A stretch of DNA of 64,000 nucleotides from a virus: IMG/VR virus record IMGVR_UViG_3300008050_000022, positions 1-64,000 of that record; one strand, 5' to 3'. Position 1 is the stretch's first letter. Every line of letters begins with the position of its first letter. A program made the position numbers and the translations under genes. This document shows, in pieces, positions 387 to 34,659 of the stretch. Under the pieces are notes generated by a model. The model was not told the origin of the DNA. It did no database searches and worked only from the letters and a program-made list of their open reading frames with translations.

Positions 387-1550
387 CTAGAAGATGAAGA
401 CTTCGGGGAACACGCCGCCAGTGGCGATCTTGTTGTTCGTGATCTCGAGCGCGTCCTCGGCACTCGGGATACGCACACCGAAGCCGATATCCGTGGCACC
501 GACCGTGATGGAGCCGGAGTAGAGCTCGAGCTTGGCGACGGCCGAGATGTTGCCGAAGCCCATCCCGATGTCTTCCCAGCTCTGCCACATGATCCGGTTG
601 GCCACCTTGTCGATGTAGAACTTGGTGTCGTTCAGGATGTAGAAGTACCCGAAGAACTCCGGCGCGGCGAAGATGTAGACGTTGCCGTCGCGCAGGATGT
701 TGTTCTTGATCGTGCGGATGACCTTCATCCCCATGACCTGCGAGTACTTGTAGCCGTCGACCACGGTCTCCGACTGCACCTGCGAACCCATGTCCTCCGT
801 GGTCCAGGTCAGGATGTCCGACCAGTCGCTCTCCGTGATCAGCATCCGCTCGGCCTGCAGCCGCTTCTGGATGAGGATCTTGAAGAGGTTGACGAAGTCA
901 GGACGCTGCACCGCACGAACCACGAAGTCGTCAGCAGCGGCGGCCAGGGCCAGGATGCCCTTGACCTTGCCACCACGGAGAAGACCCGTAGCTGCATCGA
1001 CGTCAAGGCCACCCAGGGCGACACCGGCGTTGACGTTGGTGCGGTTGAAGGGGACGGCGAGACCACCGTTGACCTCCGTCTGCATGAACTCGACCATCGA
1101 CTCGAGGTGGATCGTGAACTCGCGGTCCTCGATCTCCTGGATGTCCTTGCCCGAGTTGTCCTCGATCACCTTGGTGATCGGCATGCGGTAGGCCAGCAGC
1201 TCCTGCTCCACCTTCTCGAACTTCTCGCTCGAGATTGTGAAGAAGGCGATGGCGAATCGCGGGGCGTCGATGTAGCGAGCCTCGGGCTCGCCACGGAAGC
1301 CCATGCTCATCGCACGGCTCTGCGGCTCGACCTCTTCGATGCGGATCAGGGTGTCGTGGTTGAGAGACACCTGGCAGTCGGAGGGATCGATCGAGCGAGC
1401 GTTCATCACCTTGCGGCAATACGCTTCCTCTCGAAGGTGGTCACGGATGAACTCGCCTCCGTAGGCGGCCAGCTTGGTGCGGCCCTCGGAAGTTCCAGCC
1501 TCCTCGAAGAAGGTTTCGTTCATCACTCTGGATGCGGCGCTGTCGTACAT
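387..1550 (-). CDS. Major capsid protein (HK97-like fold, inferred)
   Basis: 387 aa, strong SD (AGAAAGGAG), strong GC3 bias, last gene of the protease-scaffold-decoration series; KDIQEIEDREF helix and C-terminal WEDIGMGFGN..AVAK typical of HK97-type capsids. Confidence 0.8.
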   Translation of the reverse strand: MYDSAASRVMNETFFEEAGTSEGRTKLAAYGGEFIRDHLREEAYCRKVMNARSIDPSDCQVSLNHDTLIRIEEVEPQSRAMSMGFRGEPEARYIDAPRFAIAFFTISSEKFEKVEQELLAYRMPITKVIEDNSGKDIQEIEDREFTIHLESMVEFMQTEVNGGLAVPFNRTNVNAGVALGGLDVDAATGLLRGGKVKGILALAAAADDFVVRAVQRPDFVNLFKILIQKRLQAERMLITESDWSDILTWTTEDMGSQVQSETVVDGYKYSQVMGMKVIRTIKNNILRDGNVYIFAAPEFFGYFYILNDTKFYIDKVANRIMWQSWEDIGMGFGNISAVAKLELYSGSITVGATDIGFGVRIPSAEDALEITNNKIATGGVFPEVFIF

Positions 1551-1574
1551 GCCTATCTCCTTTCTATGCCGCGC

Positions 1575-2171
1575 TTAGCGGAACAGGAACCGGACGAAGC
1601 CGGTGTTCTGGTTGACACTCACGACACGCGCCAGAGCGCCCTCGGCAGCCGCAGCCATGGCAGTTACCTCACCGGGAACGGGCTCGAGCAGGCCACGCAT
1701 GATCTGTCCACCCGCCACAGCGGTGAAGACGTTGCCGACGACCAGGGGATCGCCGACAGCGAGGAGGTTCAGGTCGACTCCCTGAACCGCCTGAGCAGCG
1801 GCGCTGCCCGAAACGATGTCCGTCTCCGCTTCGTAGGCATGGATCCGGATCACGGTGACCTTGCCACCGGCACCTCGGCCATCACCAGCCATCGCAGCAA
1901 GATCCGTACGACCTCGCTCACCGAAGACCTGGTAGTGGGGCGCACCGGTTACTACATCTCGGGCCGGGACTAGGATGTTGTTAGCGCCGCCTCGCTGGAG
2001 GCTGCCGACGGCCGCGGGATCATCCTGCAGCCACTCACCATCTCGGTAGAAGGCTGCGTCGTCGGGGTTCAGGGGGTTGTGTCCTACCGCATCGACGCCG
2101 CCGGCACGAGGGGCCCAGGGAAGGGACCGCATGACGCTCGGCGACCAGGGGCTAAAGAGTCTCAGGGTCAT
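1575..2171 (-). CDS. Putative capsid decoration/cement protein
   Basis: 198 aa, beta-rich, directly upstream of MCP, SD present. Confidence 0.5.
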   Translation of the reverse strand: MTLRLFSPWSPSVMRSLPWAPRAGGVDAVGHNPLNPDDAAFYRDGEWLQDDPAAVGSLQRGGANNILVPARDVVTGAPHYQVFGERGRTDLAAMAGDGRGAGGKVTVIRIHAYEAETDIVSGSAAAQAVQGVDLNLLAVGDPLVVGNVFTAVAGGQIMRGLLEPVPGEVTAMAAAAEGALARVVSVNQNTGFVRFLFR

Positions 2172-2187
2172 CGGAGTTCTCCTAGGT

Positions 2188-2550
2188 CTACTCGTCTACA
2201 TCTCGGGTGAGCAAGAACTCACCCAATCTGCTGGTTCGGCGACCGGAAGGGGAGTGATCGACGACCGAAGCCAACTTCACACCACCACCGGCCACTAGGT
2301 CAACTGCCTTCTCATAGGCAGCCATCTCACTTGGCGGGAGTTCTGCTAGGTGGGCAACCTTCTCTTCGAAGGTGAGCTCACCATGCATGTTCTTCTCTTC
2401 CAGGGCGTGTGCGATCTTCTCGCACCGCTCCTTGCTCTCGTAGGCGGCAACCTTCTCCCGGAGGATCCGGTTCTCCGCTGCCTGCTTGCGGACCGCCTGC
2501 CCGGCCTGACGGAGGACAGTGGCTGCCTGCATGCCGCTGATCTTGTTCAT
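2188..2550 (-). CDS. Putative scaffold/head assembly protein (helical, KxA-rich)
   Basis: 120 aa coiled-coil-like; 5 of 9 Lys in K-x-A; SD AGGAG. Confidence 0.55.
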   Translation of the reverse strand: MNKISGMQAATVLRQAGQAVRKQAAENRILREKVAAYESKERCEKIAHALEEKNMHGELTFEEKVAHLAELPPSEMAAYEKAVDLVAGGGVKLASVVDHSPSGRRTSRLGEFLLTRDVDE

Positions 2551-2559
2551 GGCGTACTC

Positions 2560-4068
2560 CTAGTAGCCGGGGATGGAGGGAGTGATGCTGGAACCGGAGT
2601 TCGGCATCCCTGTCATCGATGACGAGCCCTGCATCCGCTCCCCGTTCGCACGAGCAGCATCCTGTAGGGACTCCCGGAAGGCGGACTCACGCTCTAGGCG
2701 GCGATCATCCAGAGACTTGTCTTCGGTCTGGAAGCCGCCCCGGTCGAGAGAGGCCTGCTTCTCGGCGGGGTTTGCTGCCTGATGGATGCCTGCAAGTCCT
2801 CCCACAACAGGAGCTGCAACCATCCCGGCGCCCCCTGCCAGGGCGCGGGCCAGGTTGAGCCGCTGAAGCTCTCCCTGTGCGCCTAGACTGATGCCGCTCC
2901 GGGCCAAGAGACCGGCACCTGCACCCATGCCTCCTCCCACCAAAGCTCCCGCTGCCGCACCCCGTAGAGCGGCGGCCCCGCGGTTCTCTCCGTGGGGGGC
3001 CGCCAGAGCTCCACCAGCTCCACCTAGGGCACCGCCCACCCCGCCACCAAGAAGGCCGGCACGCGCCGCAGCTTGGAGGTAGGACGACTCCTTCACTGAT
3101 CCGGGTTGAACCGACCCCCTCAGAGCACGATCCACAAGCTCCTTGCGGGCTAGGGAAGCGAGCTTGCTGACCTCCGTGTGCGAGAGGTTCTTCTGGAGGA
3201 CGTCGTCCGATCCCCTGTCCAGGATCGGGGCGCTCAGCACCTTGCCGACCTCCCTCTTCACGAACTTGGTCTTGGCGTCACGCTTGTTGTAGTTGATCGC
3301 AGCCCGGTTCGAGCCGATAACGGAGGGGGACGGCTGCTTCGGGACGTTCTCGCCTGCCTGGCTAGCGCCGGACGGGTTTCCCAGGGGGGCAGCGTTCCGC
3401 TTGCCGGTGATCCTGGCCTTCGCGCCCTCTCCCCTGGAGCTGGGGGAGAACTCGGCCTGCTTGCGAAGGGCACGTCCCATCGCGAAGGCAGACTTCACCG
3501 AAGAGTCTCGGATCGGGCCTCGCTCCGGGTAGGCACCGCCGCCACCGGGAACGTCGTTCAGGTCGTTGCTCATCAGACCGGGAGCAGTGTGCTCGGAGCT
3601 GGCCGGGTTGTTGGTGCTTCGGGGAATGGCGTATCCGCTAGCACCTGCCGTAGCCCGCTGCTGCGTACCGCCACCACCAGGCCGGCGCTGGAGATCGTGC
3701 CTCATCGCGCTGCCGCCCATGCCGGGGGAGATCGAGGGCGCTTCACCAGTGTGCCTCGGGATCTCCTGCATCGCAGTGACGATCTTGAACTTGAGACGGG
3801 GATCAGACTCGACCTCTCCGACGATGTCGTAGGCCTGCTTGACTCTCTCGAGGCTCGTAGAGTCCTCGATCAGCTGCCCGCCTTCGATGCAGTCAGCCAG
3901 GTACTCCAGAGCGGAAGCGGTCTTTTCCGCCTCGTCGTTCGAGGATCGCTGATAGATCTCAGCAGGAGGGAGGTACGACGCCTCCTTCTCCATAGGCTCG
4001 TCGGCAAGCTTCTGGGCGGCAGTCTTCATCAGACCGGCGACCATTCTGTCGAGAGTGTGCTCGCTCAT
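2560..4068 (-). CDS. Virion head/core protein with KxA sites and a glycine-zipper cassette
   Basis: 502 aa; KTAA, KLAD, KEAS, KTAS, KQAY, KSAF, KQAE, KLAS, KQAS; GGGVGGALGGAGGALA segment. Confidence 0.6.
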   Translation of the reverse strand: MSEHTLDRMVAGLMKTAAQKLADEPMEKEASYLPPAEIYQRSSNDEAEKTASALEYLADCIEGGQLIEDSTSLERVKQAYDIVGEVESDPRLKFKIVTAMQEIPRHTGEAPSISPGMGGSAMRHDLQRRPGGGGTQQRATAGASGYAIPRSTNNPASSEHTAPGLMSNDLNDVPGGGGAYPERGPIRDSSVKSAFAMGRALRKQAEFSPSSRGEGAKARITGKRNAAPLGNPSGASQAGENVPKQPSPSVIGSNRAAINYNKRDAKTKFVKREVGKVLSAPILDRGSDDVLQKNLSHTEVSKLASLARKELVDRALRGSVQPGSVKESSYLQAAARAGLLGGGVGGALGGAGGALAAPHGENRGAAALRGAAAGALVGGGMGAGAGLLARSGISLGAQGELQRLNLARALAGGAGMVAAPVVGGLAGIHQAANPAEKQASLDRGGFQTEDKSLDDRRLERESAFRESLQDAARANGERMQGSSSMTGMPNSGSSITPSIPGY

Positions 4069-4322
4069 TACGTCCTCACTGCTGGGGGTGGGACAGTTTG
4101 CCCCGTGTTCAGTCCTAAGCTGCCTGTTACCGGACTCGAGTTGACCTTGGGGGCCTTCGAGAAGCCGGCTTTCTGAGAAGTCGTTTTCAGCCTACCGAGG
4201 CTGGGGGTCTTGGTCGACACGTTCATTAGGCCTACGTCAGGCTTCGGGACAGCCGGAGGAGCGGCTGACATAGCCAGCTTCTGGGTCTCAGCGAAGAATG
4301 ACGAGAGCATCGTGTTCCACAT
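4068..4322 (-). CDS. Small protein with F-x-x-E-x-x-K-L-A leader
   Basis: ATG 4322 (MWNTMLSSFFAETQKLAM) preferred over track start 4376, which lies at a hairpin; TAATG coupling to next gene. Confidence 0.55.
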   Translation of the reverse strand: MWNTMLSSFFAETQKLAMSAAPPAVPKPDVGLMNVSTKTPSLGRLKTTSQKAGFSKAPKVNSSPVTGSLGLNTGQTVPPPAVRT

Positions 4323-4342
4323 GACCGGTCTTGTAGGGGGGT

Positions 4343-4375
4343 TGGGGGAGGCTCTCTTAGGGGGAGCCTCCCCCA
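4343..4375 (-). terminator. Intergenic GC hairpin with CTAA loop
   Basis: Minus strand TGGGGGAGGCTC...CTAA...GAGCCTCCCCCA just after the stop at 4386. Confidence 0.55.
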
Positions 4376-4385
4376 CCCAGGTTGG

Positions 4386-5264
4386 CTAGATGTACCCGTG
4401 CTCTTCCAGGAGCTCGTACGCCATCTCGTCGATGGGGTCACCCTCGTAGAGGGGGTACTCGTACCCGGCTTCCGCGTGCTTGATGAAGTCGTTGGCCCGG
4501 ACCTCCGCGAGGGTCCAGTAGGCGCCAGCGGTCTTCTTCGATCCCGCGTGGTAGGCACCGGCGGCGAGGCCACCAGCAGCCAGGGCACCAGCCGCACCCG
4601 GACCGTACTTGGCCAGACGGGTGTTCGCGTTCGCGCACCCACCGAGACGGAACTTGCCTCGCGCCATCGAGCCACGCATCTTGTCGCCACGGGTCAGCTT
4701 GTCGACCTTCGAGCTCAGGTTGGCACGCATGTCGCCCTTGCCAACGCCGCTGCGCCGGAAGGAGCTGCGACGGCCAGTGGCACCGCGCGCCCTCGCACTG
4801 GAGACCGTCTCCCCTAGGGCCTCGAGCTGCTTCTTCTTCATGGCCGCGTTCCGACCCGCAGCACCACGGCCCTGCTTCAGGCCCTTGGCGCCCGGAGCGT
4901 TGGACTCGGTCTTCCAGCGAGAACGGGCGAGCTTGTCCATCTCGGAGTCCATGGAGTGCGCCATGACCTGACCGAGGAACTCGGCCTCCTTGAACTGCAC
5001 GAAGGCCGTCTTCTCGGCATCGTCCAGGTAGTTGTAGTGCTCGACGTCGTCGTGGTCCCAGTTCGGGGGGAGGTCGTCGCCCTCGTCCTCGTCCATGTAG
5101 TAGTCGGCGAGGGCGTCGATCTCTTCGTCGTCGAGGGCTTCGGCGTCGATTCCGTCTTCGGCAGCAGCTGCCTTGAACAGGTGCCAGATCTCGGACTCGT
5201 CACCAGCGGCGGCGGTCTTCTCGGTGCCGTAGTAGTCGGCAAGCCAGGAGTTCACATCGGACAT
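4386..5264 (-). CDS. Acidic scaffold/core-like protein with a basic Gly/Ala insert
   Basis: 292 aa; acidic N- and C-termini; basic cassette between DKLA and KKTA; SD GGAG. Confidence 0.6.
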   Translation of the reverse strand: MSDVNSWLADYYGTEKTAAAGDESEIWHLFKAAAAEDGIDAEALDDEEIDALADYYMDEDEGDDLPPNWDHDDVEHYNYLDDAEKTAFVQFKEAEFLGQVMAHSMDSEMDKLARSRWKTESNAPGAKGLKQGRGAAGRNAAMKKKQLEALGETVSSARARGATGRRSSFRRSGVGKGDMRANLSSKVDKLTRGDKMRGSMARGKFRLGGCANANTRLAKYGPGAAGALAAGGLAAGAYHAGSKKTAGAYWTLAEVRANDFIKHAEAGYEYPLYEGDPIDEMAYELLEEHGYI

Positions 5265-5328
5265 GTCAGTCTCTCCAGAGAGTGGGTGGGGGGTGTCTGG
5301 TCCCAGCGTCTTCGAGGTTGTGTTACCT

Positions 5329-7224
5329 CTACACTAGTACTTGGATCGCTGCCCTCACTTCAGAGGGATCGGCGACGGGATGCATGGAATCGTTGCTAAA
5401 CGACCCTGGGCCATCTTGCCCAGTAGTGTCAGCGTTGATCAACCCTCTTCTTGCCTCCGCCGAGATGTAGGCCGTTTTGAGGTAGACGTAAGGTGCTACC
5501 TGGGCCAACACCTCGAGGGGCGAGGCGGTGTGGGAGGACGATTGCTTAATTCCTGCCTGGGAGTCAAGCGTGTCCTGTCTATAGAGCGCCTTTCGGAGCT
5601 CTGGACTGTCGAGGGATTCTTGAATGTGGGGGAGTGCGAGCTCTACCCCTTCCCGGTACGCAGCGTAGCCAGAAGCCAACTTGTCTAGCAGCGGACTGGA
5701 TCTCGGAGTCCAGGATCTCTTCTGTCGAGGAGGGGCCTGGAAGATCATGGTGATCCGCCGCTTCATGACTGGCGGGGCCATCGATCTGGATTCTACATGC
5801 CCCAACAAGGACCGGACCAGATCCATGATCCTACTCTGTGGCATCCCTAGATCTAGCGGCTCTTCCCGGCAACTGCACGACTGATCGAACACTGTGCCTT
5901 CTCGCCGGAAGTGATCTGCCTGACGGCCCATGCCTGCGTGCCGAAGCGCTACGTCCTGGAACTCGTGAGGCTTCAGGATGATCCCTGCCCTCGAGGGGGC
6001 AGCCAAGGCGTCACTCAAAGAGCGGGAACGCGAGAGTCTCCGTAGAGATCTGTCCGGTAGGTCGGGCTCGTGGTCCTCGAGCCGCTTCATCACCTTGTCC
6101 GGTCCGCCGGGAAGACGCTTGATCATCTCACTGAACTTGATCGCAGCCCTCTTGTTTCGCAACTGTTCAGTTGCGGCTACAGCAGCGTCACGGAAATTGT
6201 CTCGAGCTGCAGCTTCCTTAGCCAGATCCATAACAGAGATACGTGCCAGGGGAGGCAAGAGGTTCAGCACCTCCGGCTGCTCCCTCACGAATTCGCGTAC
6301 CTTGCTCTGTACTTCTGGGCGATCCCTCTTGGAAAGGAGCTCCTCCGGCATCCTGTTCAGGATCTCCGATGCCCGCTTTTCCCCGTAGAAGAGCTCACCG
6401 CGTTCTGCAGAAGGCATCGCGATGCCTCCAGGAGAGAACACCCAGGATCGCGTCTGATTGTGCGCCAGCTTGGCCATGACCATGGCAGTTCGATCAGCTC
6501 CGATGATCACGAAACTGTCGTCGAAGAAGTTGGGGTAGTCGTTGTGAACGGCGCAGACAGACCCGTCGTCCAGGACCTTGTTCATCCCGAAGCGAGGATC
6601 TTTGTTGTTGACGTGCTTGCAGTAGCTCGCCTTGGTCTTCGCCAAGTTCCCACACTGCGTGCATCGATCGTACGGAACTCGACAGCCCATCGAGGTAGGC
6701 GGGAAGATCCCCTCCAGAATCTTCCGAACTAGGGGCATGGCCCCCTGCCGCTCACACAGGTCGTGGTTCAGGTCGAAGATCGTCTCGACCCGGTGCATCC
6801 TGGGATTCCAGGAAGCCAGGATGATCCTCCCCAGTGTCTTGCTGGGATCCTTGTTCTGATGATGCTGGAAGATGTGAGCGTTGTAGAAGGTCGGGTACCC
6901 GAACCGGATACCTCTCGCAGCTGACGCCCTGCCCTCGACATCCCACGGAGAGATGGAGGCCATCTTCTCGTGGCCGTTCAGCAAGCCGGCTTCAGGGAAC
7001 GTGTCCCCGTTGACGTTGCTGCCGTAGTACTCGAAGGACCCTAGAGCGTTGTTCAGGACGTAGGTGTGTCCTTGTTCCGGCTCCATCCGCTCGATGAACC
7101 CCTTCACCTCATCCGACAAGGTGTCCGCCCCAGCCATCTTGGCCAAGGGGTACCTTTCCGGGATCAAGTGGGTGAAGGCGCTACCGCTCTCCGACCCCTC
7201 GAAGTGGAGGAGCTTCTCCATCAT
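5329..7224 (-). CDS. Prohead (capsid maturation) protease with Zn-finger
   Basis: N-x-N-G-D-x-F motif, HIFQHH (candidate catalytic His), TSMGC (candidate catalytic Ser) followed by CTQCGN...CKH; upstream of scaffold and capsid genes. Confidence 0.7.
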   Translation of the reverse strand: MMEKLLHFEGSESGSAFTHLIPERYPLAKMAGADTLSDEVKGFIERMEPEQGHTYVLNNALGSFEYYGSNVNGDTFPEAGLLNGHEKMASISPWDVEGRASAARGIRFGYPTFYNAHIFQHHQNKDPSKTLGRIILASWNPRMHRVETIFDLNHDLCERQGAMPLVRKILEGIFPPTSMGCRVPYDRCTQCGNLAKTKASYCKHVNNKDPRFGMNKVLDDGSVCAVHNDYPNFFDDSFVIIGADRTAMVMAKLAHNQTRSWVFSPGGIAMPSAERGELFYGEKRASEILNRMPEELLSKRDRPEVQSKVREFVREQPEVLNLLPPLARISVMDLAKEAAARDNFRDAAVAATEQLRNKRAAIKFSEMIKRLPGGPDKVMKRLEDHEPDLPDRSLRRLSRSRSLSDALAAPSRAGIILKPHEFQDVALRHAGMGRQADHFRREGTVFDQSCSCREEPLDLGMPQSRIMDLVRSLLGHVESRSMAPPVMKRRITMIFQAPPRQKRSWTPRSSPLLDKLASGYAAYREGVELALPHIQESLDSPELRKALYRQDTLDSQAGIKQSSSHTASPLEVLAQVAPYVYLKTAYISAEARRGLINADTTGQDGPGSFSNDSMHPVADPSEVRAAIQVLV

Positions 7225-7231
7225 CGGCTAG

Positions 7232-7759
7232 CTACCACCTCTCTCGAAGCTCTTCACGCTCTCGGAGAACTCGAGCGAGCCGAAGCTGTGCTGAGGCAGA
7301 CTTGTCGAAGATGTCGGGGGAGCCGAACCCCTTTCCAAAGCCTGCTGCGAACACGCCCGGAATGGCTTGCGCCGGGTTCCGGTACTTGTCCTCGATCTCC
7401 ACCAGCTGCTTGACCTGGCTCGGGTCGATCAGCTCGTCGTAGTCCACGACCTTCCGGACGAACGTGCCGGCCACCATGGGATCAGCCGCCATGGAGGGAG
7501 AGAAGTTGTGCAGAGTACGGAACGCTCGCTGAGCAGGGACGGTGTCCTTGATCTTGTTCTCCCCCAGCATGTTCCGATAGTGCTTGCCCTTGTTGACCTG
7601 TGACATGCCCTTGTGGATCTTGCGCTCCAACACGGTGGCCATCGCCGAACCTAGGGCCAGTGCGCCTACCGAGCCTGCTCCGGCCAAGAGACCCTTCAGG
7701 GCTCCCGCACCTAGCTGCTCTACCCCTGCCAGCTTGCGGATTTCAGACATCTTGCGCAT
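7232..7759 (-). CDS. Virion protein with a hydrophobic N-terminal helix
   Basis: 175 aa; RKLAG leader then GALKGLLAGAGSVGALALGSAMA; C-terminal DKSAS. Confidence 0.55.
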   Translation of the reverse strand: MRKMSEIRKLAGVEQLGAGALKGLLAGAGSVGALALGSAMATVLERKIHKGMSQVNKGKHYRNMLGENKIKDTVPAQRAFRTLHNFSPSMAADPMVAGTFVRKVVDYDELIDPSQVKQLVEIEDKYRNPAQAIPGVFAAGFGKGFGSPDIFDKSASAQLRLARVLREREELRERW

Positions 7760-7998
7760 TAGTAGATTCCTGTTGTTGATGGGCCGTGTAGAGGATTGGG
7801 CCGTTTGTGTCGAGGAAGGGCCTGCCGACCCTGAGTGATCGCAGCAATCCGAGGATTGATCGCCTGGTAGTTCTTCTTCAAGGCCTTGCCGCCCAGGTAC
7901 GCGGCACCGCCCCCAACCATCACATGTAGCGGGTGGTTGACTGCCCAGCGAAGAGCAGATGCCTCCTTGATGAAGGCGGACCAGGAAGCTGGACTCAC
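7759..7998 (-). CDS. Small protein with KEAS leader and a Gly-rich helix
   Basis: MSPASWSAFIKEASA...VMVGGGAAYLGGKALKK; coupled to both neighbours. Confidence 0.6.
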   Translation of the reverse strand: MSPASWSAFIKEASALRWAVNHPLHVMVGGGAAYLGGKALKKNYQAINPRIAAITQGRQALPRHKRPNPLHGPSTTGIY

Positions 7999-8885
7999 CG
8001 AACGTGGTCCCTCAGGAAGCCGTTGATCTTCTTCTTCTCTTCGTCAGCCAGCTTCTTCGCCACCCGGATCTCCGCCACCTTGATCTGCGAGTGTCGGAAG
8101 GCCCCGAACGCCGTAGAGATGGGGTTGGTGTCCTTGACGTCCAGGTGCGACAGCTTCTGCATGACGGCAGGCCGGAAGCTGGGACTGGCCATACCTACCC
8201 GGTGATGAGCTAGGGACACCGCCTCCGCAGCCTCCTTGACTCCCGCCTCGCTGCTGTCTACGTGCAAGCAGACTACTGCGAGAGCTTCTGTGGGCTGCCC
8301 TTCCTTGAGTGCCTCCGCCATCTTGTCGACCATGGTGGCGTGAGCTCGTCGAGCCAAGGACAGCTCTCGAGTCTCGTCAGCAGCCAGCTTGTTGATCGCA
8401 GCACTGATCTTGGTGCGAGCATCGAGCAACCTGTTCAGCGGGAACGCTTCCGAAGTAGGCGGACCTACAGGACGCACTGCTGCAGCAGCCTTCTCCATCA
8501 CAGCTACACCGGCGGACTTGATGTATCGAGTGGGCGTCTCGGAGTACGCTAGGGATGCCAGCTTCGTGGGAGCAGGACCTGAGAAGCCGCCTGCCACTAC
8601 CGTCGGATCGGCGACGTCGAAGTCGGGAACCCGGAAGTCCCCGGACGCCTGCTTGAACATGGCGTTGAACGTCGCCTGGTTGGCGTACTCGCACGCTCGC
8701 CGGAGCTGCTCCTGGTTCATGTCGGCCGAAGCACGCTTCGTCAGGGAGGCGTTCAGCGGCACCCCTCTCTCGAGGTAGTCCGCAGCCGCCTGCTTGCCCA
8801 TGAGCTCTAGACGTTCCTTGGAGACGCCCTTGACGCTAGAAGAGCCCTGGAGCAGTGCTGCGAAAGGTCCGAAGTCGTTCATCAT
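7995..8885 (-). CDS. KxA-rich head/core protein
   Basis: 296 aa; 11 of 21 Lys in K-x-A context; SD GGAG. Confidence 0.65.
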   Translation of the reverse strand: MMNDFGPFAALLQGSSSVKGVSKERLELMGKQAAADYLERGVPLNASLTKRASADMNQEQLRRACEYANQATFNAMFKQASGDFRVPDFDVADPTVVAGGFSGPAPTKLASLAYSETPTRYIKSAGVAVMEKAAAAVRPVGPPTSEAFPLNRLLDARTKISAAINKLAADETRELSLARRAHATMVDKMAEALKEGQPTEALAVVCLHVDSSEAGVKEAAEAVSLAHHRVGMASPSFRPAVMQKLSHLDVKDTNPISTAFGAFRHSQIKVAEIRVAKKLADEEKKKINGFLRDHVR

Positions 8886-11364: not shown

Positions 11365-11370
11365 CTAACG

Positions 11371-13601: not shown

Positions 13602-14476
13602 GCTCCCTCCGCCTTCCCGGAGCCGCTGTAGTTGCCTTCACCGGCCAGCTGCCTGAGCTCGGGCATGCCGTCCTCCTCATCGACCTCCATGATGAACCGC
13701 TCGAACTGCTCTGCGGCTCCCGCAGTCACAGCACCGTGGTCCTTGAGGGAGTCGGATACTCCTCGGATCTCCCGAGAAAGCTCGGCCAGCATACGTACAG
13801 ACGAGCCATCCGTCGGCTGCGTCTCCGCCTCAATGTAGCGGAAGAAGAGGGACTGCTGGATGTGCTGAAGCATCCGTGCGGTGGAGATGGTCGTTCTCAG
13901 ACCTAGACGATGGAGAGCGAGATTAGATCCGCCCTGAACAACGAGAGCTCTCTGATCTCGGTTCCCCAACCACTCGACCCACTCCTGCACCGGCATGCGA
14001 TCAGGGTTGAAGAAGTAGTGTCTGAATGCCTGGATCGTAGCGATGTCCACTACACCGGAGCCATGCTTGGACTCCAGGACGGTGGCCAACCTCCCTGCTG
14101 TGACGAATCCGAGAATGCCTATCTCGAGGTCATGACGGATTCGAGGAGCTGCCAGCCACCCTAGGGCTCGAGAAGCTGCCTCCTCAGAGACGTGTAGCTC
14201 CGAGATCTGCAGGCCCTTCCAGTACAGCCGGTTCTTGGGGTCGCTCTTGTTGGAAGGGAGGTAGACCTTGGGGCGGTTGCGGGCTGACCTGACCAGGTCC
14301 ATCTCCCCAGCCAGACTGTCGGTGTCTACCGGCAGCAGAGAGAACCCGTTCAGGTGCTTGTGAACCAGGTCAGGGCCGTAGCCCTCCCCCTCCCCAAGGC
14401 TAAGCAGGTACCGAATGAAGAACCTGGACGGGTGCTTCTCTACGATGATCCCGTCTTGCGCTCCCAAGTCCCTCAT
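13598..14476 (-). CDS. Hypothetical helical protein
   Basis: About 292 aa; TGATG coupling to the upstream gene. Confidence 0.65.
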   Translation of the reverse strand: MRDLGAQDGIIVEKHPSRFFIRYLLSLGEGEGYGPDLVHKHLNGFSLLPVDTDSLAGEMDLVRSARNRPKVYLPSNKSDPKNRLYWKGLQISELHVSEEAASRALGWLAAPRIRHDLEIGILGFVTAGRLATVLESKHGSGVVDIATIQAFRHYFFNPDRMPVQEWVEWLGNRDQRALVVQGGSNLALHRLGLRTTISTARMLQHIQQSLFFRYIEAETQPTDGSSVRMLAELSREIRGVSDSLKDHGAVTAGAAEQFERFIMEVDEEDGMPELRQLAGEGNYSGSGKAEGA

Positions 14477-20910: not shown

Positions 20911-20911
20911 A

Positions 20912-27335: not shown

Positions 27336-27337
27336 TC

Positions 27338-28141: not shown

Positions 28142-28145
28142 CTGG

Positions 28146-28170
28146 TCGGCACACGGGCTCCGTGTGCCGA
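28146..28170. terminator. Hairpin between convergent genes
   Basis: TCGGCACACGG-GCT-CCGTGTGCCGA. Confidence 0.65.
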
Positions 28171-28243
28171 TCTACCTTCCCCTTCTGTTCTTATCTATCC
28201 CGTCCAGCATCTCCTGAAAGGAGTCAGCATTGCTCCTGTGGTA

Positions 28244-30235
28244 TCACACGATCGCCGAGCCTATGTCTCTCCTGGGCGGCTTCGCGCTCGGGAGAGGCGA
28301 CTGGTTCGGGTCCAAGGGGTCTCTCTTGCCTCCCTTGGACTGCATGATCTGAAGCACCAGGTTCAGGAAGTTGGGCTGCTCCATCTTCATCTTCTGCATC
28401 CACGCGTAGGCCGTCTTGGGGTCCTGCTTCAAGAGGTCGTCGAGCATCTTCGACACTCTCTTAGCTACGTACAACACGTTCATGCTCTGACCACCCGCTC
28501 CGCTAGCCTGGTTGATCGGAGACTGGGCCTCCTGCGGGACGCCCTCTGCTGGCGCCTGTCCTGCGTTCTCTGGGTTGATGCTGCCTCCCGAAGACGGAAG
28601 TGCTCCGGCTGCCTCAGGCGGCGGCTGGCGAGCCTCGGCGCCCGGTGTAGCCCCGCCCAGCATGTCCTGACTTGCGGCCTGCATGTACCGCTGTGAAACC
28701 TGCTGAGCCTCTGCCTGAGCAATGGCGGACGCAACCTGCATCCGTCGCTGATCGTCGGAAGTCCTCCTGCCCTCGCCACGCTTGAGCCTCTGCTCTGCTT
28801 CGTAGTTCTCTCCCAGCTCTCGGAGCAGGGTGTGATCAGAGACCTTGCCACCCTGGTTCATCTGGAAGTAGATCATCGTCCGCTGCAGGTCGTCGGCCAT
28901 CTTGAAGCGCTTGAACTTCTTATCGACCTTCGGCCAGCCCATGAAGGCGCCGATGCTGTCGAACACCCAGTTCGTCAGCCCCTGCGTCTCCGTGCGGTAG
29001 TTGATGAACTCGTTCTCGAGGTTCCGCATCGACACGTTGGTGCCGCTGTACGACATCCCGCCGAAGATGAACTCCTGTGGGGCATGCATGCCTGCGATGA
29101 TCTGCTCTGCCCAAACCCGATGCTCCTGGTGGAGCACCATGGCTCGGCCCTGCCCACCAATGACCTGGTGCCCCACGGGCATGGGGAGGATGGGCATGTA
29201 GTTGGGATCACGCCTCCACCGCTCGATCTCCTCTTCCATGGTGTTCTTCCACCCCTGGAGAGGCACCGTGGTGTAGGGATCAGAGGTGCCGGACCCGGCC
29301 TGCGGGAAGAGGACTCTCAGGGGCACGATATGCTCCCTGGCGATCATCTCCTGGCCCTTCTTGAGCACCTGCAGGTAGTACGAGTCCTTGAGCACTGGGA
29401 GGATGCGAGGCATCCCCCACCCCTGGTCCTTACCCGCTAGAGTCGGACGCTTGAGGTGGAACACCTGTCCAGGCGAGAACTTGAGGGCCAGCTTCTTCTT
29501 GGCGGCCTTCAAGAAGATCGAGGGGATCCTCTCGATGACGTGCGGCTTGCCTACCAGTAGCTGCCCTCGAGTACGAGCACTCATCTGATAGAAGTACTGG
29601 GTGTCTCCGGTCTCCTCGTTGTACTGGATGGAGATCCTCTCCGGATCCCACCGGATCAACCGGATCTGGTGAGGGGAGCGGAGAGCGATGTCCTTTTGCT
29701 TAGCCTTCCCTCGAGAGTTGCACTTCGGGCACTTGAGCACGAAGCCCATGTCCCGCCACTGGTAGAACTTCCTCAGCTGCTTGACGGGCTCACTGTGCTT
29801 GCAGTTGCCGCAGATCAGGTACTTGACGAAGGGGTAGTGGATCGAGACGAAGGCGTTGCCGTAGCACTGGTAGTCCAGCCCCGCCTCTACAAGGAACTGG
29901 CGGTACCCCAGGATGTCATCCTTGAGGTGAGCGTACTTGTCCTCTACTGCCGCGTGCTCGCTGGTGAACACCAGGTCGGTGATCGGGTACGACGCCATCT
30001 TGTAGCAGACGGCGTTCACCAGGGGATTCGTGAGGAAGTAGTACCGGCAGTACTTGAAGAGCTTCTTCATCGTGGCGGGCAAGTACGTATGCGCGCCGTC
30101 GAAGAAGGGGTTGGGGTAGGCCACGCCTCCCCGACCACTGGTGTTCATCCGGAGATCGCCGAAGCCCCCAGACCCCCCAGAGCCTAGACCATCGGTGATC
30201 CCTCCCGGGAAACTGCCGAAGTCGAAACCGGCCAT
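28244..30235 (-). CDS. Portal protein with a Zn-ribbon insertion
   Basis: YFLTNPLV..., DYQCYGNAF, FHLKRP..GWGMP motifs; Q/P-rich C-terminal tail; CGNC...CPKC insert. Confidence 0.75.
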   Translation of the reverse strand: MAGFDFGSFPGGITDGLGSGGSGGFGDLRMNTSGRGGVAYPNPFFDGAHTYLPATMKKLFKYCRYYFLTNPLVNAVCYKMASYPITDLVFTSEHAAVEDKYAHLKDDILGYRQFLVEAGLDYQCYGNAFVSIHYPFVKYLICGNCKHSEPVKQLRKFYQWRDMGFVLKCPKCNSRGKAKQKDIALRSPHQIRLIRWDPERISIQYNEETGDTQYFYQMSARTRGQLLVGKPHVIERIPSIFLKAAKKKLALKFSPGQVFHLKRPTLAGKDQGWGMPRILPVLKDSYYLQVLKKGQEMIAREHIVPLRVLFPQAGSGTSDPYTTVPLQGWKNTMEEEIERWRRDPNYMPILPMPVGHQVIGGQGRAMVLHQEHRVWAEQIIAGMHAPQEFIFGGMSYSGTNVSMRNLENEFINYRTETQGLTNWVFDSIGAFMGWPKVDKKFKRFKMADDLQRTMIYFQMNQGGKVSDHTLLRELGENYEAEQRLKRGEGRRTSDDQRRMQVASAIAQAEAQQVSQRYMQAASQDMLGGATPGAEARQPPPEAAGALPSSGGSINPENAGQAPAEGVPQEAQSPINQASGAGGQSMNVLYVAKRVSKMLDDLLKQDPKTAYAWMQKMKMEQPNFLNLVLQIMQSKGGKRDPLDPNQSPLPSAKPPRRDIGSAIV

Positions 30236-31836: not shown

Positions 31837-31839
31837 GGG

Positions 31840-34659
31840 TTATGCCGAGATTCGAGAGATGACGTGCTTCACATCCGAGGGCAAGGACTCGAACACTGCT
31901 ACCGGAGCCTTGGCGAACTCGTAGAAGCCGTCGTCTCCCAGGGCAGTGGTCAGCGGAATCCGCTTCTCCTTGCTGGCTGCTACCAGCTGATCTCCGGTCA
32001 CCGTGTCGGGACCTTCTGACCACCGGAAGTCTTCGGAGGCAGACTTCGTGAGGATCGCAGCGTAGGGATCTACTACGTGAGTGTCCCACTTCTGGCTGAT
32101 GCCGTAGTGCTCATCGACCTGGGTGAGCGCATCCGCGAGGTAGTCCGGGTCGGCGGTCGGGATCTCCTCGGCCAGCTTGATCAGCACCTCACGACCGTAG
32201 TCGTCCACGTACTTGGCTCGAGCGTTCAGGTGCAGCACAGCTTCCGTAGAGACAGCGTCACCGGCGTACTTCGCGAGGTTCTCGGAGGTCGGGTAGACCC
32301 CGTGAGCCAGGGCGGCCTTGACCAGGTTGGTCGCGTACGTTCGTCGATCAGAGGGATGGAGCCTCTGCCAGTGCTCGTCGAAGAAAGCCTCTGCCTGCTT
32401 GATCTGCTCCGGGTTCTCTACCGGGTAGTCTCCTCGTAGAAGGGTAGACGGGGCCGCGGTCTTCGGCCTGTTGAAGAGCTTCTGCTGCAACATGCCGCTA
32501 CCTGCCCCTAGAGCGGTGGTGCCTGCCGCCACAGCGCCGAGTCGACCGCCCTTCATCTTGCCGAGCAGACCGGTGTGCTTGGCGATTCCCGCCGCGCCCA
32601 GTCCTCCAGCCGCACCTGCTGCACCAGCTTCGCCAGGAGTCCATCCACGATAGCTGAGCAAGCTCCGCTTTCGACCTTGTGGAGCAGTGGTACTGGTGTT
32701 GGTGCCTGTCAGAGAGAAACCAGCGGCAGTCTTCTGGTTCTCTCGAGCCTGCTCAGCCTTGCGCTGTCGGTGCATCACGTAGGCACCTCCTGCCGCCAGG
32801 GCTCCGGCGGCCGCCAGGGCTCCGCCAGTCGCTCGTGGGGAGGAAGATCTCGGGATCGGTCGAGACTTCGGGGAGTCCAACCGGGCCTTGATCTTCGGGG
32901 TCTTGAAGAAGAGCTTGGATCTCTTCCTGGGAGCAGGAGGGGAAGAGGGGGCGCGTCTATCCGCTCTCGCGACTCTATCTATGTGCCTCGAGTCCTTCGC
33001 TCCCCCTGGCCGCAAGTAGTCTGCCGTGGCCGACGGGTCCATCAGCCCCCGAAACTTGAGCTCCTGGCGAAGTCTACGACCCTTGGACTTGTCGATGTCC
33101 TTGTTGATGAGCCTGGCACCCTCGCGGACATGACGGTTTTCGGAATTTCTCGAGATGTCGAAGAAGGACTTCTCCGCATTCTCCAGTCCCTTGCGCCTCT
33201 CTCGAGCCTTGTCGGCTGCCCTGGCCTTGAGCTCCTTGCTCAAGGCTTCCTTCGTCTGGCCGGCTTCAAGCCGCTTGATCCTCTGAACCATGGCAGCTCT
33301 CTGAGAGTGATCGGTGCCGAGCTGGTAGCCCTGCCGACGCCCACTCCAGTAGCCCTTTTGGCTACCCGAGCCGAATCCTGCGGAGAAGCCTTCAGCCTTC
33401 CCCTTCTTCTTGCCCCGCTTGTGGCCCAGCACAGCTCCGCCCATAGCGGTAGCGGCGGCGATGCCAGCGGTGGTCTTGGCACCTGCCTGCTTCCTCATAT
33501 CCTTGTTGAGCGACAAGAGGGCCTGAGCCTTGTTGACTCCAGGCTGAAGACTGACGTGGCCTACCTGCTTGAACGTACTGGGGTTCTGGAGAGCCTGCAC
33601 CGCCTGAGACTTCGACAAGGCCCTACCACCTAGCTCGAAGAACTCATTCTTGTTGTGGTACTCCTTGACCAGGGATCTCGCACCTGCCGCAGACTCAGGC
33701 CTCTTGTTACCTTTGAGGGCAGTGGACCAGTTGTATCCCTCCATAGAAGCCGACGCCCGCTTTCTACGTCCCATCATGTAGCCAGTACCTGCGACCCCTG
33801 CCTGCTTCGGCCGACCGAGCATCCTCTTGGCGCCGTAGGCACCCGCACCTAGGGCAGCAGCACCTCCAGCAGTAGCTGCACCGGCAGCGGCAAGGTTCGT
33901 TCCTGGGGCGTACTTCGCGTTCCTGGAGACATTGCCAACTGCCTTGGCCCAGTTTTGAGGGGCGGTACGGGTGACGTCCCTCTTCGCCAGCAAGTTCTTA
34001 CTCCTCGCCACACCCCTGCCAGCCTCCTGTAGACCCGCTCCGCTGGCTCTAGCGAACTGCCCGGCTGCTCCGCCCATGGCCTTGGCACCAGCTGCCATCT
34101 GACCGCCCCAACCTGCTCCCCCTTGGCCCGCTGCCGTAGCGGCTTGCCGCCCTGCCTGATAGGAGCCCTTGGCGGCCCGTCCCAGCATCTTGAAGCCTTC
34201 TCCGGCGGCTCGGAAGAACGCCTTCTTCTCGGCGCTAAGATCGGTGATGTCCACCACCGGAGTATCTCCGAAGTAGACGAGCTCTCCCTCACCGTGGAGA
34301 GACTCGTTCAGGGCAGACGCCACCTTCTCGACGAGCTCCATCGGGGGAGGCGTACTCGTGCCCTCGAGGACGTGCATCAGATTCGTGCCCGCCAGGACAG
34401 CCGCCGTCTTCGGCATGCGGTCCCAGGAGCCGAGCAGACACATCGTGTTGAGCCAGGCGGTCCCAGGACTCATACAGGCGAACTTCCTGAACCTCTCACT
34501 GCCATCGACCATGATGAGGGCGAAGTCCTCGTCGGGGTAGTTGTCCAGCTCGTCTTCCGACGGGAAGTGGCTGCTCCCGACCTCATCGGGAACGCCGATG
34601 CCGGCCTCCTTGACGAGGCCAGGTCCGAAGTCGTGAAGATCCAGGTACGTACGGTGCAT
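31840..34659 (-). CDS. Virion polyprotein-like protein with an array of KxA-delimited cassettes
   Basis: 939 aa; acidic globular termini flank about 590 aa of basic Gly/Ala modules separated by KKA, KQA, KRA, KEA, KTA; SD AAGGAG. Confidence 0.7.
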   Translation of the reverse strand: MHRTYLDLHDFGPGLVKEAGIGVPDEVGSSHFPSEDELDNYPDEDFALIMVDGSERFRKFACMSPGTAWLNTMCLLGSWDRMPKTAAVLAGTNLMHVLEGTSTPPPMELVEKVASALNESLHGEGELVYFGDTPVVDITDLSAEKKAFFRAAGEGFKMLGRAAKGSYQAGRQAATAAGQGGAGWGGQMAAGAKAMGGAAGQFARASGAGLQEAGRGVARSKNLLAKRDVTRTAPQNWAKAVGNVSRNAKYAPGTNLAAAGAATAGGAAALGAGAYGAKRMLGRPKQAGVAGTGYMMGRRKRASASMEGYNWSTALKGNKRPESAAGARSLVKEYHNKNEFFELGGRALSKSQAVQALQNPSTFKQVGHVSLQPGVNKAQALLSLNKDMRKQAGAKTTAGIAAATAMGGAVLGHKRGKKKGKAEGFSAGFGSGSQKGYWSGRRQGYQLGTDHSQRAAMVQRIKRLEAGQTKEALSKELKARAADKARERRKGLENAEKSFFDISRNSENRHVREGARLINKDIDKSKGRRLRQELKFRGLMDPSATADYLRPGGAKDSRHIDRVARADRRAPSSPPAPRKRSKLFFKTPKIKARLDSPKSRPIPRSSSPRATGGALAAAGALAAGGAYVMHRQRKAEQARENQKTAAGFSLTGTNTSTTAPQGRKRSLLSYRGWTPGEAGAAGAAGGLGAAGIAKHTGLLGKMKGGRLGAVAAGTTALGAGSGMLQQKLFNRPKTAAPSTLLRGDYPVENPEQIKQAEAFFDEHWQRLHPSDRRTYATNLVKAALAHGVYPTSENLAKYAGDAVSTEAVLHLNARAKYVDDYGREVLIKLAEEIPTADPDYLADALTQVDEHYGISQKWDTHVVDPYAAILTKSASEDFRWSEGPDTVTGDQLVAASKEKRIPLTTALGDDGFYEFAKAPVAVFESLPSDVKHVISRISA

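What the first reader, a model, noticed from the sequence alone, without database searches (positions are those of the whole stretch)
387..34659. Pervasive K-x-A(A/S/G) motif in head proteins: candidate cleavage code of the prohead protease
Seen: nearly every minus-strand head-region protein is studded with K-x-A. It covers 11 of 21 Lys in 7995-8885 and 5 of 9 in 2188-2550. There are many copies in 2560-4068, 4386-5264, 14476-16755, 31840-34659 and the protease itself, plus one at K26-L-A28 of the capsid protein. Tail and replication proteins appear to have far fewer. Known: T4 gp21 and phiKZ gp175 process many head proteins at a short motif ending in Glu. Inference: the protease at 5329-7224 cleaves at K-x-A, a different specificity, and this motif organises maturation of the whole head.
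Basis: partly seen in the sequence, partly recalled or inferred. Interest (0 to 1): 0.85.

Follow-up and report, generated by a model that had tools for sequence, protein, structure and literature searches.

The report
Lys-x-Ala head-protease cleavage code
A large uncultured phage marks its head-assembly proteins with a short Lys-x-Ala signal that is very probably where its own capsid-maturation protease cuts, a cutting rule unlike that of T4-type phages and closer to that of herpesviruses, though no cut has yet been measured.

Summary
In ten head-module proteins K-x-A occurs 85 times against 34 expected (z 10), and K-x-A-[S/A/G] 49 times against 10. The other 92 proteins of the 106-kb record have slightly fewer than expected. 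R-x-A, K-A, K-x-x-A and A-x-K are not enriched, and there are no internal repeats.

An unbiased scan of all residue pairs puts K-x-A first here. It is also first in the syntenic head genes of the distant cultured relatives Salmonella phage Arash and Vibrio phage D69. The same scan recovers I/L-x-E for T4's known substrates.

The consensus is (L/M/I/F)-(E/T)-K-x-A-(S/A/G)-(A/V). The 631-aa protease has the T4 gp21/herpes assemblin fold, with invariant His122 and Ser178. Motif copies lie in disordered linkers on both sides of its catalytic domain, and the N-terminal copy is kept in 106 of 109 homologues.

The fused 2067-aa RNA polymerase has a single K-x-A-[S/A/G]. It sits at the joint where Arash and D69 have two separate genes.

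Cleavage itself is inferred, not shown, and the capsid-protein site is ambiguous. This scan had already noted the same motif in at least 77 other phage genomes. I found no publication describing it. Verdict: a new variant of a known kind.

The parts
5329..7224 (-). Prohead protease, 631 aa. It has a leader (aa 1-31), a catalytic domain (about aa 33-262) and a long C-terminal extension with further K-x-A sites at K283, K336, K358, K515 and K583.
   Evidence: PHROG head maturation protease hit. AF2 model with pLDDT 84; closest structures are T4 gp21 (5jbl, Z 9.6) and herpes proteases (Z 6-8). K-x-A 8 vs 2.7 expected.
6682..6696 (-). T-S-M-G-C motif containing the putative catalytic Ser178. The putative catalytic His122 is at 6859-6861.
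   Evidence: S178, M179, H122, N124 and D186 are present in 109 of 109 homologues. hhalign places S178 on T4 gp21 S140, but the match is weak (E 0.24). Coordinates checked.
7132..7140 (-). K29-M-A31, followed by Gly: predicted N-terminal autoprocessing site of the protease.
   Evidence: Lys in 106 of 109 and Ala in 106 of 109 homologues, inside an otherwise variable segment; P5 is Leu or Phe in 91 of 109. It lies in the low-pLDDT stretch 19-31, just before the fold.
6370..6378 (-). K283-R-A285, followed by Ser: predicted site just after the catalytic domain. K252-L-A254 (6463-6471) lies in the last beta-strand of the domain.
   Evidence: K283 lies in the linker that follows the fold (10-residue blocks from aa 261 average pLDDT 43-57). 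Arash and D69 have E-K-R-A-S copies further along the chain (K386, K385); in the alignment these fall on the window's K515-L-A-S. K252 and A254 are invariant in the 5-lineage alignment.
7995..8885 (-). 296-aa protein with 11 K-x-A sites. Cutting at these would give pieces of 9-52 aa, so it is a likely degradable scaffold or core protein.
   Evidence: 11 vs 3.5 expected. The L003 orthologue has 12 of its 15 Lys in K-x-A. Sites K31 and K132 are invariant in 3 lineages. Fragment sizes.
7232..7998 (-). Two small proteins (175 aa at 7232-7759; 79 aa at 7759-7998), each with a K-x-A-[SAG] within the first 13 residues.
2188..5264 (-). Four head-module proteins (120, 502, 102 and 292 aa) with N-terminal and internal K-x-A sites.
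   Evidence: 5 vs 1.3, 9 vs 3.3, 2 vs 0.8 and 7 vs 3.3 expected. Sites K20-L-A22, K49, K302 and K437 of the 502-aa protein are conserved in L003.
14476..16755 (-). 759-aa protein with 23 K-x-A sites, spaced about every 30 aa across aa 317-527, with no sequence repeats. It is a candidate multiply cleaved internal head protein.
   Evidence: 23 vs 6.3 expected, z 7.5. No internal repeats.
31840..34659 (-). 939-aa protein with 10 K-x-A-[SAG] sites: candidate polyprotein.
   Evidence: K-x-A-[SAG] 10 vs 3.6 expected, p 0.002. 8 sites score at least 9 bits with a scoring matrix trained only on relatives.
387..1550 (-). Major capsid protein, 387 aa. The candidate propeptide site K26-L-A28 is at 1467-1475.
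   Evidence: PHROG major head protein hit and homology to Arash gp226. K26 is kept in 121 of 123 and A28 in 118 of 123 homologues, but P1' is Glu in 91 of 123. The site sits at the end of an N-terminal helix, before a low-pLDDT linker at aa 30-35.
22715..22723 (-). K1465-T-A1467, followed by Ala. It is the only K-x-A-[SAG] in the fused 2067-aa RNA polymerase (20912-27115) and lies at the joint that corresponds to the gene boundary in relatives.
   Evidence: Arash gp206 ends at window aa 1460, and Arash gp216 aa 3 aligns with window aa 1469. The same site sits in a variable insert in fused homologues P0243-P0245. Translation checked.
28244..30235 (-). Portal protein (context only). K-x-A is not significantly enriched here.
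   Evidence: 29-32% identity to Arash gp204, annotated as portal, and to D69_0259. 6 vs 3.3 expected.

Best explanation
K-x-A, more fully (L/M/I/F)-(E/T/V)-K-x-A followed by S/A/G and then A/V, is the recognition site of the phage's own prohead serine protease (5329-7224).

Inferred mechanism, by analogy with T4 gp21 and phiKZ gp175:
1. The protease and its substrates co-assemble inside the prohead.
2. The protease frees its catalytic domain by cutting the motif copies in the linkers on either side of it.
3. It then cuts the other head proteins at the motif, most likely after the Ala (P3 Lys, P1 Ala, small P1').
4. Proteins dense in sites (the 296-aa protein and the 120-502-aa proteins) are chopped into peptides of roughly 10-60 aa, or up to about 150 aa in the larger ones, that leave the shell.
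5. Short N-terminal leaders are removed from the other substrates.
6. Long proteins (759 aa, 939 aa and the fused RNA polymerase) are processed as polyproteins into internal or ejected head proteins.

Shown here: the motif statistics, their conservation, the protease fold with its invariant Ser and His, and the coincidence with the RNA polymerase joint. Inferred: that cleavage happens at all, which bond is cut, and what becomes of the fragments.
For: 1. Enrichment is specific. K-x-A is 85 vs 34 expected (z 10) and [LIMFV]-x-K-x-A is 39 vs 7.7 in ten head proteins. R-x-A, K-A, K-x-x-A and A-x-K are at expectation, and the other 92 proteins are slightly depleted.
2. In an unbiased scan of all residue-gap-residue pairs, K-x-A ranks first here (z 8.6). 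It also ranks first in head genes chosen by synteny in Arash (z 5.3) and D69 (z 6.4), whose internal head proteins have no detectable sequence similarity to these. It is also enriched in the closer relatives L003 and L004.
3. As a positive control, the same scan ranks I-x-E and L-x-E first and second for the known T4 gp21 substrates.
4. A scoring matrix trained only on the relatives finds 39 sites in this proteome. 34 are in head-module proteins, against 6.4 sites in a shuffled proteome.
5. The same flanking preferences (P5 hydrophobic, P4 Glu/Thr, P1' Ser/Ala/Gly, P2' Ala/Val) appear in five lineages.
6. The protease has the gp21/assemblin fold (Z 9.6 to 5jbl; herpes proteases Z 6-8) with invariant H122 and S178. 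Motif copies sit in low-confidence linkers on both sides of the fold, and the N-terminal copy is kept in 106 of 109 homologues.
7. Motif Lys are conserved more often than other Lys between the window and L003: 15 of 24 vs 22 of 70, Fisher p 0.014.
8. Twelve head-module proteins carry K-x-A within their first 40 residues, against 9 of the other 90 proteins.
9. The single K-x-A-[SAG] of the fused RNA polymerase lies within about 5 residues of the point where Arash and D69 split the enzyme into two genes. Three fused relatives keep the site inside an otherwise variable insert.
10. The polymerase is otherwise depleted of K-x-A: 8-9 vs 16 expected, and 4 vs 14 in one relative.
11. No second head-protease family (S77, S78, ClpP) is detectable in the record.
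Against: - There is no experimental cleavage data for any member of the clade. The Arash virion proteomics gives only coverage, not peptide termini.
- The tripeptide alone cannot be sufficient. Conserved copies lie inside folded beta-strands (capsid protein K315-V-A317; protease K252-L-A254) and are probably not cut.
- The capsid-protein site has Glu at P1' in most relatives and lies in a generally conserved segment.
- The window's substrate set was partly delimited after seeing the counts, although the relatives' sets were chosen by synteny.
- Site positions turn over: about 63% are kept at roughly 40% protein identity.
- The two most distant fused polymerases lack the joint site.
- The record is only about 56% complete, so another protease could lie in the missing part.
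Confidence: 0.78

Rival explanations
1. K-x-A is a short linear binding or targeting motif, for example for docking to the scaffold, shell interior, portal or DNA, and is not itself a scissile site. Any proteolysis would then occur elsewhere or not at all.
For: No cleavage has been observed. The motif clusters in N-terminal leaders, as capsid-targeting sequences do. Conserved copies occur in folded parts of the capsid protein and the protease.
Against: - The pattern of preferences at P5, P4, P3, P1, P1' and P2' looks like protease subsite reading.
- Copies bracket the catalytic domain of the protease in disordered linkers.
- One copy marks the polymerase joint where relatives have separate chains.
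- In T4 the targeting sequence and the cleavage site coincide, so this rival is not exclusive of the main reading.
Confidence: 0.1
2. The motif is the protease's site, but the bond cut is not Ala|Ser. For example, the cut could be after the Lys, or one residue further on.
For: Lys is the most information-rich position. No terminus has been mapped.
Against: - Ala at +2 is needed as strictly as Lys, and K-x-G is actually depleted (9 vs 23.6 expected).
- In relatives of this fold the P3-x-P1 reading is the rule: T4 L/I-x-E|, phiKZ and SPN3US A-x-E| (PMC10052503), herpes (V/L/I)-x-A|S (general knowledge).
- A cut after Lys would often expose Leu or Arg N-termini, which are destabilising in bacteria (inference).
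Confidence: 0.12
3. The enrichment is a by-product of composition, helical periodicity or internal repeats in Ala/Lys-rich scaffold-like proteins, with no specific reader.
For: The substrate proteins are Ala-rich (13.6% vs 9.1%), and many sites lie in predicted helices.
Against: - The shuffles keep composition.
- Only the i,i+2 spacing and only Lys (not Arg) are enriched.
- There are no repeats.
- The same pair ranks first in lineages with very different sequences and no detectable similarity.
Confidence: 0.03

Closest known systems
Phage T4 prohead protease gp21 and its substrates (gp22, gp23, gp24, gp67, gp68, IPI-III, Alt)
   Same: - The protease fold is the same (Z 9.6, rmsd 2.7 Å over 130 residues to 5jbl).
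- The Ser/His pair has similar spacing, and the Ser aligns.
- One protease acts on many head proteins.
- Short N-terminal leaders end in the motif, and scaffold-like proteins are dense in sites.
- The motif is detectable by the same statistical scan.
   Different: - The motif is K-x-A rather than (L/I)-x-E, and [LI]-x-E is not enriched here.
- There is no Pfam S77 sequence match.
- The protease is 631 aa with a long C-terminal extension, against 212 aa for gp21.
phiKZ gp175 / SPN3US gp245 prohead proteases, which cut at (S/A/G)-x-E (PMC10052503)
   Same: - Large phages that package a multisubunit RNA polymerase and many internal or ejected proteins.
- Multiple motif copies within propeptides.
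- Protease self-cleavage.
- Substrates evolve fast while the motif is kept.
   Different: P1 is Ala rather than Glu, and P3 is Lys. [SAG]-x-E is depleted here (z -2.2). The phage lineage is different: its relatives are Arash and D69, not Chimalliviridae.
Herpesvirus assemblin (MEROPS S21), which cuts (V/L/I)-x-A|S at the R and M sites (general knowledge)
   Same: The fold is shared (Z 6-8 to the VZV, PrV, HSV, CMV, EBV and KSHV proteases). P1 Ala with P1' Ser is preferred. The protease releases itself from a longer precursor.
   Different: P3 is Lys rather than a hydrophobic residue. There are dozens of sites in about ten substrates rather than two or three sites in one or two. Sequence similarity is below detection.
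Salmonella phage Arash (OQ632216; PMC10585845) and Vibrio phages D69/D148/D181
   Same: The protease (35-37% identity), capsid protein, portal and RNA polymerase are homologous. K-x-A shows the same excess in the syntenic head genes. RNA polymerase subunits are among the most abundant proteins found in Arash virions.
   Different: Their RNA polymerase is encoded by two genes rather than one fused gene. Their internal head proteins show no detectable similarity to those of the window. No analysis of processing has been published for them.

Membership tests
Assemblin/gp21-fold prohead serine proteases (MEROPS clan SH) | Herpes-protease/gp21 fold of the catalytic domain | tested here: met
   The AF2 model (pLDDT above 90 over most of aa 40-260) matches T4 gp21 5jbl at Z 9.6 (rmsd 2.7 Å, 130 residues) and about 30 herpes protease entries at Z 5-8. 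These stand above unrelated MCE-domain rows at Z 4.7 or less.
Assemblin/gp21-fold prohead serine proteases (MEROPS clan SH) | Conserved catalytic Ser and His | tested here: met
   S178 and H122 are invariant in 109 of 109 homologues. hhalign places S178 on gp21 S140, but only weakly (E 0.24). The His lies in the equivalent segment, offset by a 3-residue indel. Catalysis itself was not tested.
Pfam Peptidase_S77 (T4 gp21 family) by sequence | Match to the family HMM above its cut-off | tested here: not met
   No Pfam hit for the protease at E 0.01 or better. No PF03420 match in the whole record at E 10 or better. The same holds for S78 and ClpP.
T4/phiKZ-type multi-substrate proteolytic head maturation | A short motif concentrated in head proteins and their N-terminal leaders, and absent from other proteins | tested here: met
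T4/phiKZ-type multi-substrate proteolytic head maturation | Glu at P1 (x-x-E|) | tested here: not met
   [LI]-x-E has z 1.5 and [SAG]-x-E has z -2.2 in the substrate set, against z 10 for K-x-A.
T4/phiKZ-type multi-substrate proteolytic head maturation | Cleavage at the motif demonstrated in virions or in vitro | not testable with these tools
   No peptide-level data are available for Arash, and no paper on such a motif was found.
Herpes assemblin-type specificity | Ala at P1 and Ser at P1' | tested here: inconclusive
   Ala is obligatory, and the next residue is Ser/Ala/Gly at 1.4-4.8 times background in five lineages. That the bond cut is Ala|Ser is inferred, not observed.

The most novel reading that the evidence does not exclude
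A very large and almost entirely uncultured clade of 100-200-kb phages uses a Lys-x-Ala|Ser code, read by a gp21/assemblin-fold protease, both to load and to process capsid cargo as polyproteins. This would include cutting a fused beta-beta' RNA polymerase into two subunits inside the prohead. The clade has more than 1,300 capsid-protein clusters in metagenomes and includes the cultured phages Arash and D69. The P1 Ala / P1' Ser rule would be the first phage specificity to match that of herpesvirus assemblin, linking the two branches of the protease family by function as well as by fold.
Probability: 0.5. Interest if true: 0.72.

Novelty: new variant of a known kind. Interest (0 to 1): 0.62.

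Why it matters
Cleavage motifs of prohead proteases are known experimentally for only a few model phages: T4, the phiKZ/SPN3US group and HK97-like phages. A robust sequence-derived rule for a large uncultured clade would have several uses.
- The mature forms of dozens of unannotatable head and ejected proteins could be predicted from sequence alone.
- It would separate the degradable scaffold from retained cargo.
- It would explain how a fused RNA polymerase can yield separate subunits.
- It gives a concrete, cheap experiment in a cultured member, Salmonella phage Arash.
- It suggests that Ala|Ser specificity, so far a hallmark of herpesvirus assemblin, also exists among the phage relatives of that enzyme.

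Tried and rejected
- **Composition or helix artefact: rejected.** The shuffles keep composition, and only Lys at i with Ala at i+2 is enriched.
- **Internal or tandem repeats: rejected**.
- **T4- or phiKZ-type Glu motifs: not enriched**.
- **Sequence search of the protease against solved structures:** nothing meaningful. Foldseek alone was weak (best E 0.027), although its hit list was dominated by herpes proteases and gp21. The structural re-alignment gave the usable Z-scores.
- **Pfam and PHROG annotation of the substrate proteins:** nothing.
- **Direct evidence from the Arash proteomics:** the supplement holds only gene and protein sequences, no peptides.
- **Phage G structure paper (PMC7316594):** not held. 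The 2025 phage G paper says nothing on cleavage specificity.
- **Literature searches for K-x-A or Lys-x-Ala in a phage context:** nothing found.
- **Positional conservation for the 759-aa protein against L003 and L004:** not usable, because both orthologous ORFs begin at the edge of the fetched locus and cover only the C-terminal third.
- **Capsid-protein site as a clean proof:** not achieved. Conservation there cannot be told apart from structural constraint.


Full report
**Setting.** The window is the first 64 kb of a 105,937-bp IMG/VR virus record, about 60% G+C, which CheckV estimates to be 56% complete. On the minus strand between 34659 and 387 lies a head module. In order it holds:
- a 939-aa protein;
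- the portal (28244-30235, homologous to Arash gp204);
- a fused 2067-aa RNA polymerase;
- several unknown proteins, including a 759-aa one;
- the large terminase (9607-11364);
- a run of small and medium proteins around a 631-aa protease (5329-7224);
- the major capsid protein (387-1550).

The only cultured relatives in the phage collection are Salmonella phage Arash (181 kb) and Vibrio phages D69/D148/D181 (about 187 kb). Capsid protein identity to these is 24-26%, protease 35-37% and RNA polymerase 32%. In metagenomes the clade is very large: more than 1,300 capsid-protein clusters at E ≤ 1e-5, on contigs up to about 200 kb.

**Check of the observation.** Composition-preserving shuffles of each protein show a clear K-x-A excess in these proteins:

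| Protein | Observed | Expected | z |
|---|---|---|---|
| 14476-16755 | 23 | 6.3 | 7.5 |
| 7995-8885 | 11 | 3.5 | 4.7 |
| 2188-2550 | 5 | 1.3 | 3.6 |
| 2560-4068 | 9 | 3.3 | 3.4 |
| protease 5329-7224 | 8 | 2.7 | 3.5 |
| 4386-5264 | 7 | 3.3 | 2.4 |

For 31840-34659 the excess appears mainly when the next residue is included: K-x-A-[SAG] is 10 vs 3.6 expected.

Pooled over ten head proteins (3,895 aa), K-x-A is 85 vs 34.0 (z 10.1), K-x-A-[SAG] is 49 vs 10.3 (z 12.9) and [LIMFV]-x-K-x-A is 39 vs 7.7 (z 11.7). The remaining 92 proteins (30,050 aa) have 106 vs 122.3. About 34% of Lys lie in the motif in the first set, against 7.6% in the second.

The controls are clean. R-x-A, K-A, K-x-x-A, A-x-K, K-x-S and K-x-V are at expectation, and K-x-G is depleted. 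There are no internal repeats: the 759-aa protein matches only itself, and the segments between its sites are unrelated.

**Is K-x-A the signal, or just one I looked for?** I scored all ~1,200 residue-gap-residue pairs (gaps 1-3) against shuffles. K-x-A ranks first in the window's head set (z 8.6; the next pair has z 4.0). It also ranks first in gene sets picked purely by synteny in Arash (gp218-225, z 5.3) and D69 (0266-0274, z 6.4). K-x-x-S and L/M-x-K follow in the ranking.

Apart from the protease, the proteins in those sets have no detectable similarity to the window's proteins, so shared ancestry of sequence cannot explain the result. Two closer metagenomic relatives, L003 and L004, show the same excess in their orthologues; in L003, 12 of 15 Lys of the 296-aa protein's orthologue are in the motif.

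As a positive control, the same scan on the known T4 gp21 substrates returns I-x-E and L-x-E as ranks 1 and 2. The method therefore finds a real cleavage code where one is known, and the signal here is considerably stronger.

**Anatomy of the motif.** In five lineages the flanks agree:

| Position | Preference |
|---|---|
| P5 | L/M/I/F/V |
| P4 | E/T/V |
| P3 | K |
| P2 | loosely L/T/Q/E/V |
| P1 | A |
| P1' | S/A/G, sometimes E |
| P2' | A/V |

A position weight matrix trained only on the relatives and applied to this proteome gives 39 sites of at least 9 bits. Of these, 34 fall in the head-module proteins, against 6.4 sites in a shuffled proteome. Twelve head-module proteins have a K-x-A within their first 40 residues, against 9 of the other 90 proteins.

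Between the window and L003 (about 40% identity), motif Lys are kept more often than other Lys: 15 of 24 vs 22 of 70, Fisher p 0.014. Several sites are invariant across three to five lineages.

**The enzyme.** The N-terminal 300 residues of the 631-aa protein fold with high confidence, with pLDDT above 90 over most of aa 40-260. After structural re-alignment the best match is the T4 capsid assembly protease gp21 (5jbl; Z 9.6, rmsd 2.7 Å, 130 residues). Herpesvirus proteases follow at Z 6-8, above unrelated rows at Z 4.7 or less. Foldseek alone was weak, but those families dominated its top hits.

In 109 homologues H122, N124, S178 (in T-S-M-G-C), M179 and D186 are invariant. A weak profile alignment (E 0.24) puts S178 on gp21 S140. 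That S140 and H85 are the gp21 catalytic residues is my recollection of the literature.

No Pfam S77, S78 or ClpP model matches anywhere in the record. The enzyme is therefore a structural relative of gp21, not a sequence-level member of S77.

The protease also carries its own motif where autoprocessing would be expected:
- K29-M-A31-G lies in the disordered stretch immediately before the fold. It is kept as [L/F]-E-K-[T/V/L]-A-[S/A/G] in 106 of 109 homologues, although the surrounding residues vary.
- K283-R-A285-S lies in the low-confidence linker just after the fold. Arash and D69 carry E-K-R-A-S copies further along the chain (K386, K385), which align with the window's K515-L-A-S.

**An independent line: the polymerase joint.** The fused 2067-aa RNA polymerase has about 205 Lys but only one K-x-A-[SAG], at K1465-T-A1467-A (window 22715-22723).

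In Arash and D69 the enzyme is encoded by two genes. The first gene product ends opposite window residue 1460, and the second begins (its residue 3) opposite residue 1469. A single site would fall within about 5 residues of that joint by chance roughly 0.5% of the time.

In three fused relatives (76%, 67% and 49% identity locally) the joint carries a small, otherwise variable insert that keeps hydrophobic-x-K-x-A-small. In two of them it is again the only such site in the protein. Two more distant fused forms lack both the insert and the site.

The polymerase is otherwise depleted of K-x-A: 9 vs 16.0 in the window, and 8, 9 and 4 vs 14-16 in three closely related polymerase sequences (one of them a near-identical variant of the window's). 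No depletion is seen in more distant forms. This fits a packaged enzyme that must be cut once and otherwise left intact. In Arash the polymerase subunits are among the most abundant virion proteins (PMC10585845).

**What remains uncertain.**
- No cleavage has been measured. The Arash proteomics reports coverage only, and its supplement has no peptide list.
- The capsid-protein site (K26-L-A28) is conserved: K in 121 of 123 and A in 118 of 123 homologues, with K27-E-A29-G in Arash and D69. However, the whole N-arm is conserved and P1' is Glu in 91 of 123. The model puts the site at the end of a short N-terminal helix pair, just before a low-confidence linker at aa 30-35. That is compatible with a 28-residue propeptide but does not prove one.
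- Some conserved copies lie in beta-strands of folded domains (capsid protein K315-V-A317; protease K252-L-A254). These are probably not cut, so context and accessibility must matter.
- That the scissile bond follows Ala is inferred from three things: the P3-x-P1 logic of T4, phiKZ/SPN3US (PMC10052503) and herpes assemblin; the strict need for Ala; and the small-residue preference at the next position.

**Comparison and novelty.** The system works like T4 and phiKZ/SPN3US head maturation: one gp21-fold protease, many substrates, leaders and scaffold-like proteins dense in sites, and self-processing. The rule it reads is different. Lys at P3 and Ala at P1 replace a hydrophobic or small residue at P3 and Glu at P1, and the Glu-type motifs are not enriched here.

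The P1 Ala / P1' Ser preference is that of herpesvirus assemblin, the eukaryotic-virus member of the same fold.

I found no paper describing such a motif. This scan, however, has already flagged the same K-x-A motif on other DNA, in at least 77 genomes, with several follow-ups reaching similar readings. Those notes are not independent evidence, but they show the finding is not unique to this window.

What this window adds is threefold: the link to two cultured lineages, the T4 positive control, and the polymerase-joint coincidence. I rate it a new variant of a known kind. It is well supported computationally and readily testable in phage Arash.

Noticed in passing
window 20912-27115 (-): The beta and beta' parts of a multisubunit-type RNA polymerase are fused into one 2067-aa chain. 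In Arash and D69 the same enzyme is split into a 1525-aa and a ~606-aa gene. Six fused forms of 2067-2532 aa exist in metagenomes, one of which carries intein and peptidase M23 domains.
   Followed up: partly
protease homologues P0023, P0024, P0041, P0087, P0107, P0109, P0110, P0117: Several homologues of the prohead protease are about 900-1060 aa long and carry Hint/intein and LAGLIDADG domains. Inteins therefore appear to have invaded this protease gene repeatedly.
   Followed up: no
L005 (Bacillus phage G) 11841-12743 and 13269-14729: In phage G the protease homologue gp19 (8 vs 2.5 expected) and gp21 (7 vs 2.9) are enriched in K-x-A. The other ten head-region proteins tested, including the capsid protein gp27 (0 sites), are not. 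The code may be shared only in part.
   Followed up: partly
window 14476-16755 (-), aa 317-527: Eight K-x-A-[SAGE] sites are spaced 15-44 aa apart (most gaps about 30 aa) with no detectable sequence repeat between them, as if the fragment size itself were under selection.
   Followed up: partly
L003 13207-15426 (+): Relative to the window, the orthologue of the 502-aa protein carries a ~260-aa insertion. It is made of two copies of a basic module followed by a Gly/Ala-rich hydrophobic stretch, and a K-T-A-T lies close to the end of the insert.
   Followed up: no
window 219-1973 (+), 41553-42842 (-), 50657-51478 (-): These long ORFs, antisense to real genes, have almost no Lys (0-5). They are typical shadow ORFs of a 60% G+C genome and mislead length-based gene calling.
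   Followed up: yes
whole record G000: The record is an IMG/VR contig that CheckV estimates to be 56% complete. The true genome is therefore probably about 190 kb, like Arash and D69, and part of the virion gene set is missing.
   Followed up: no
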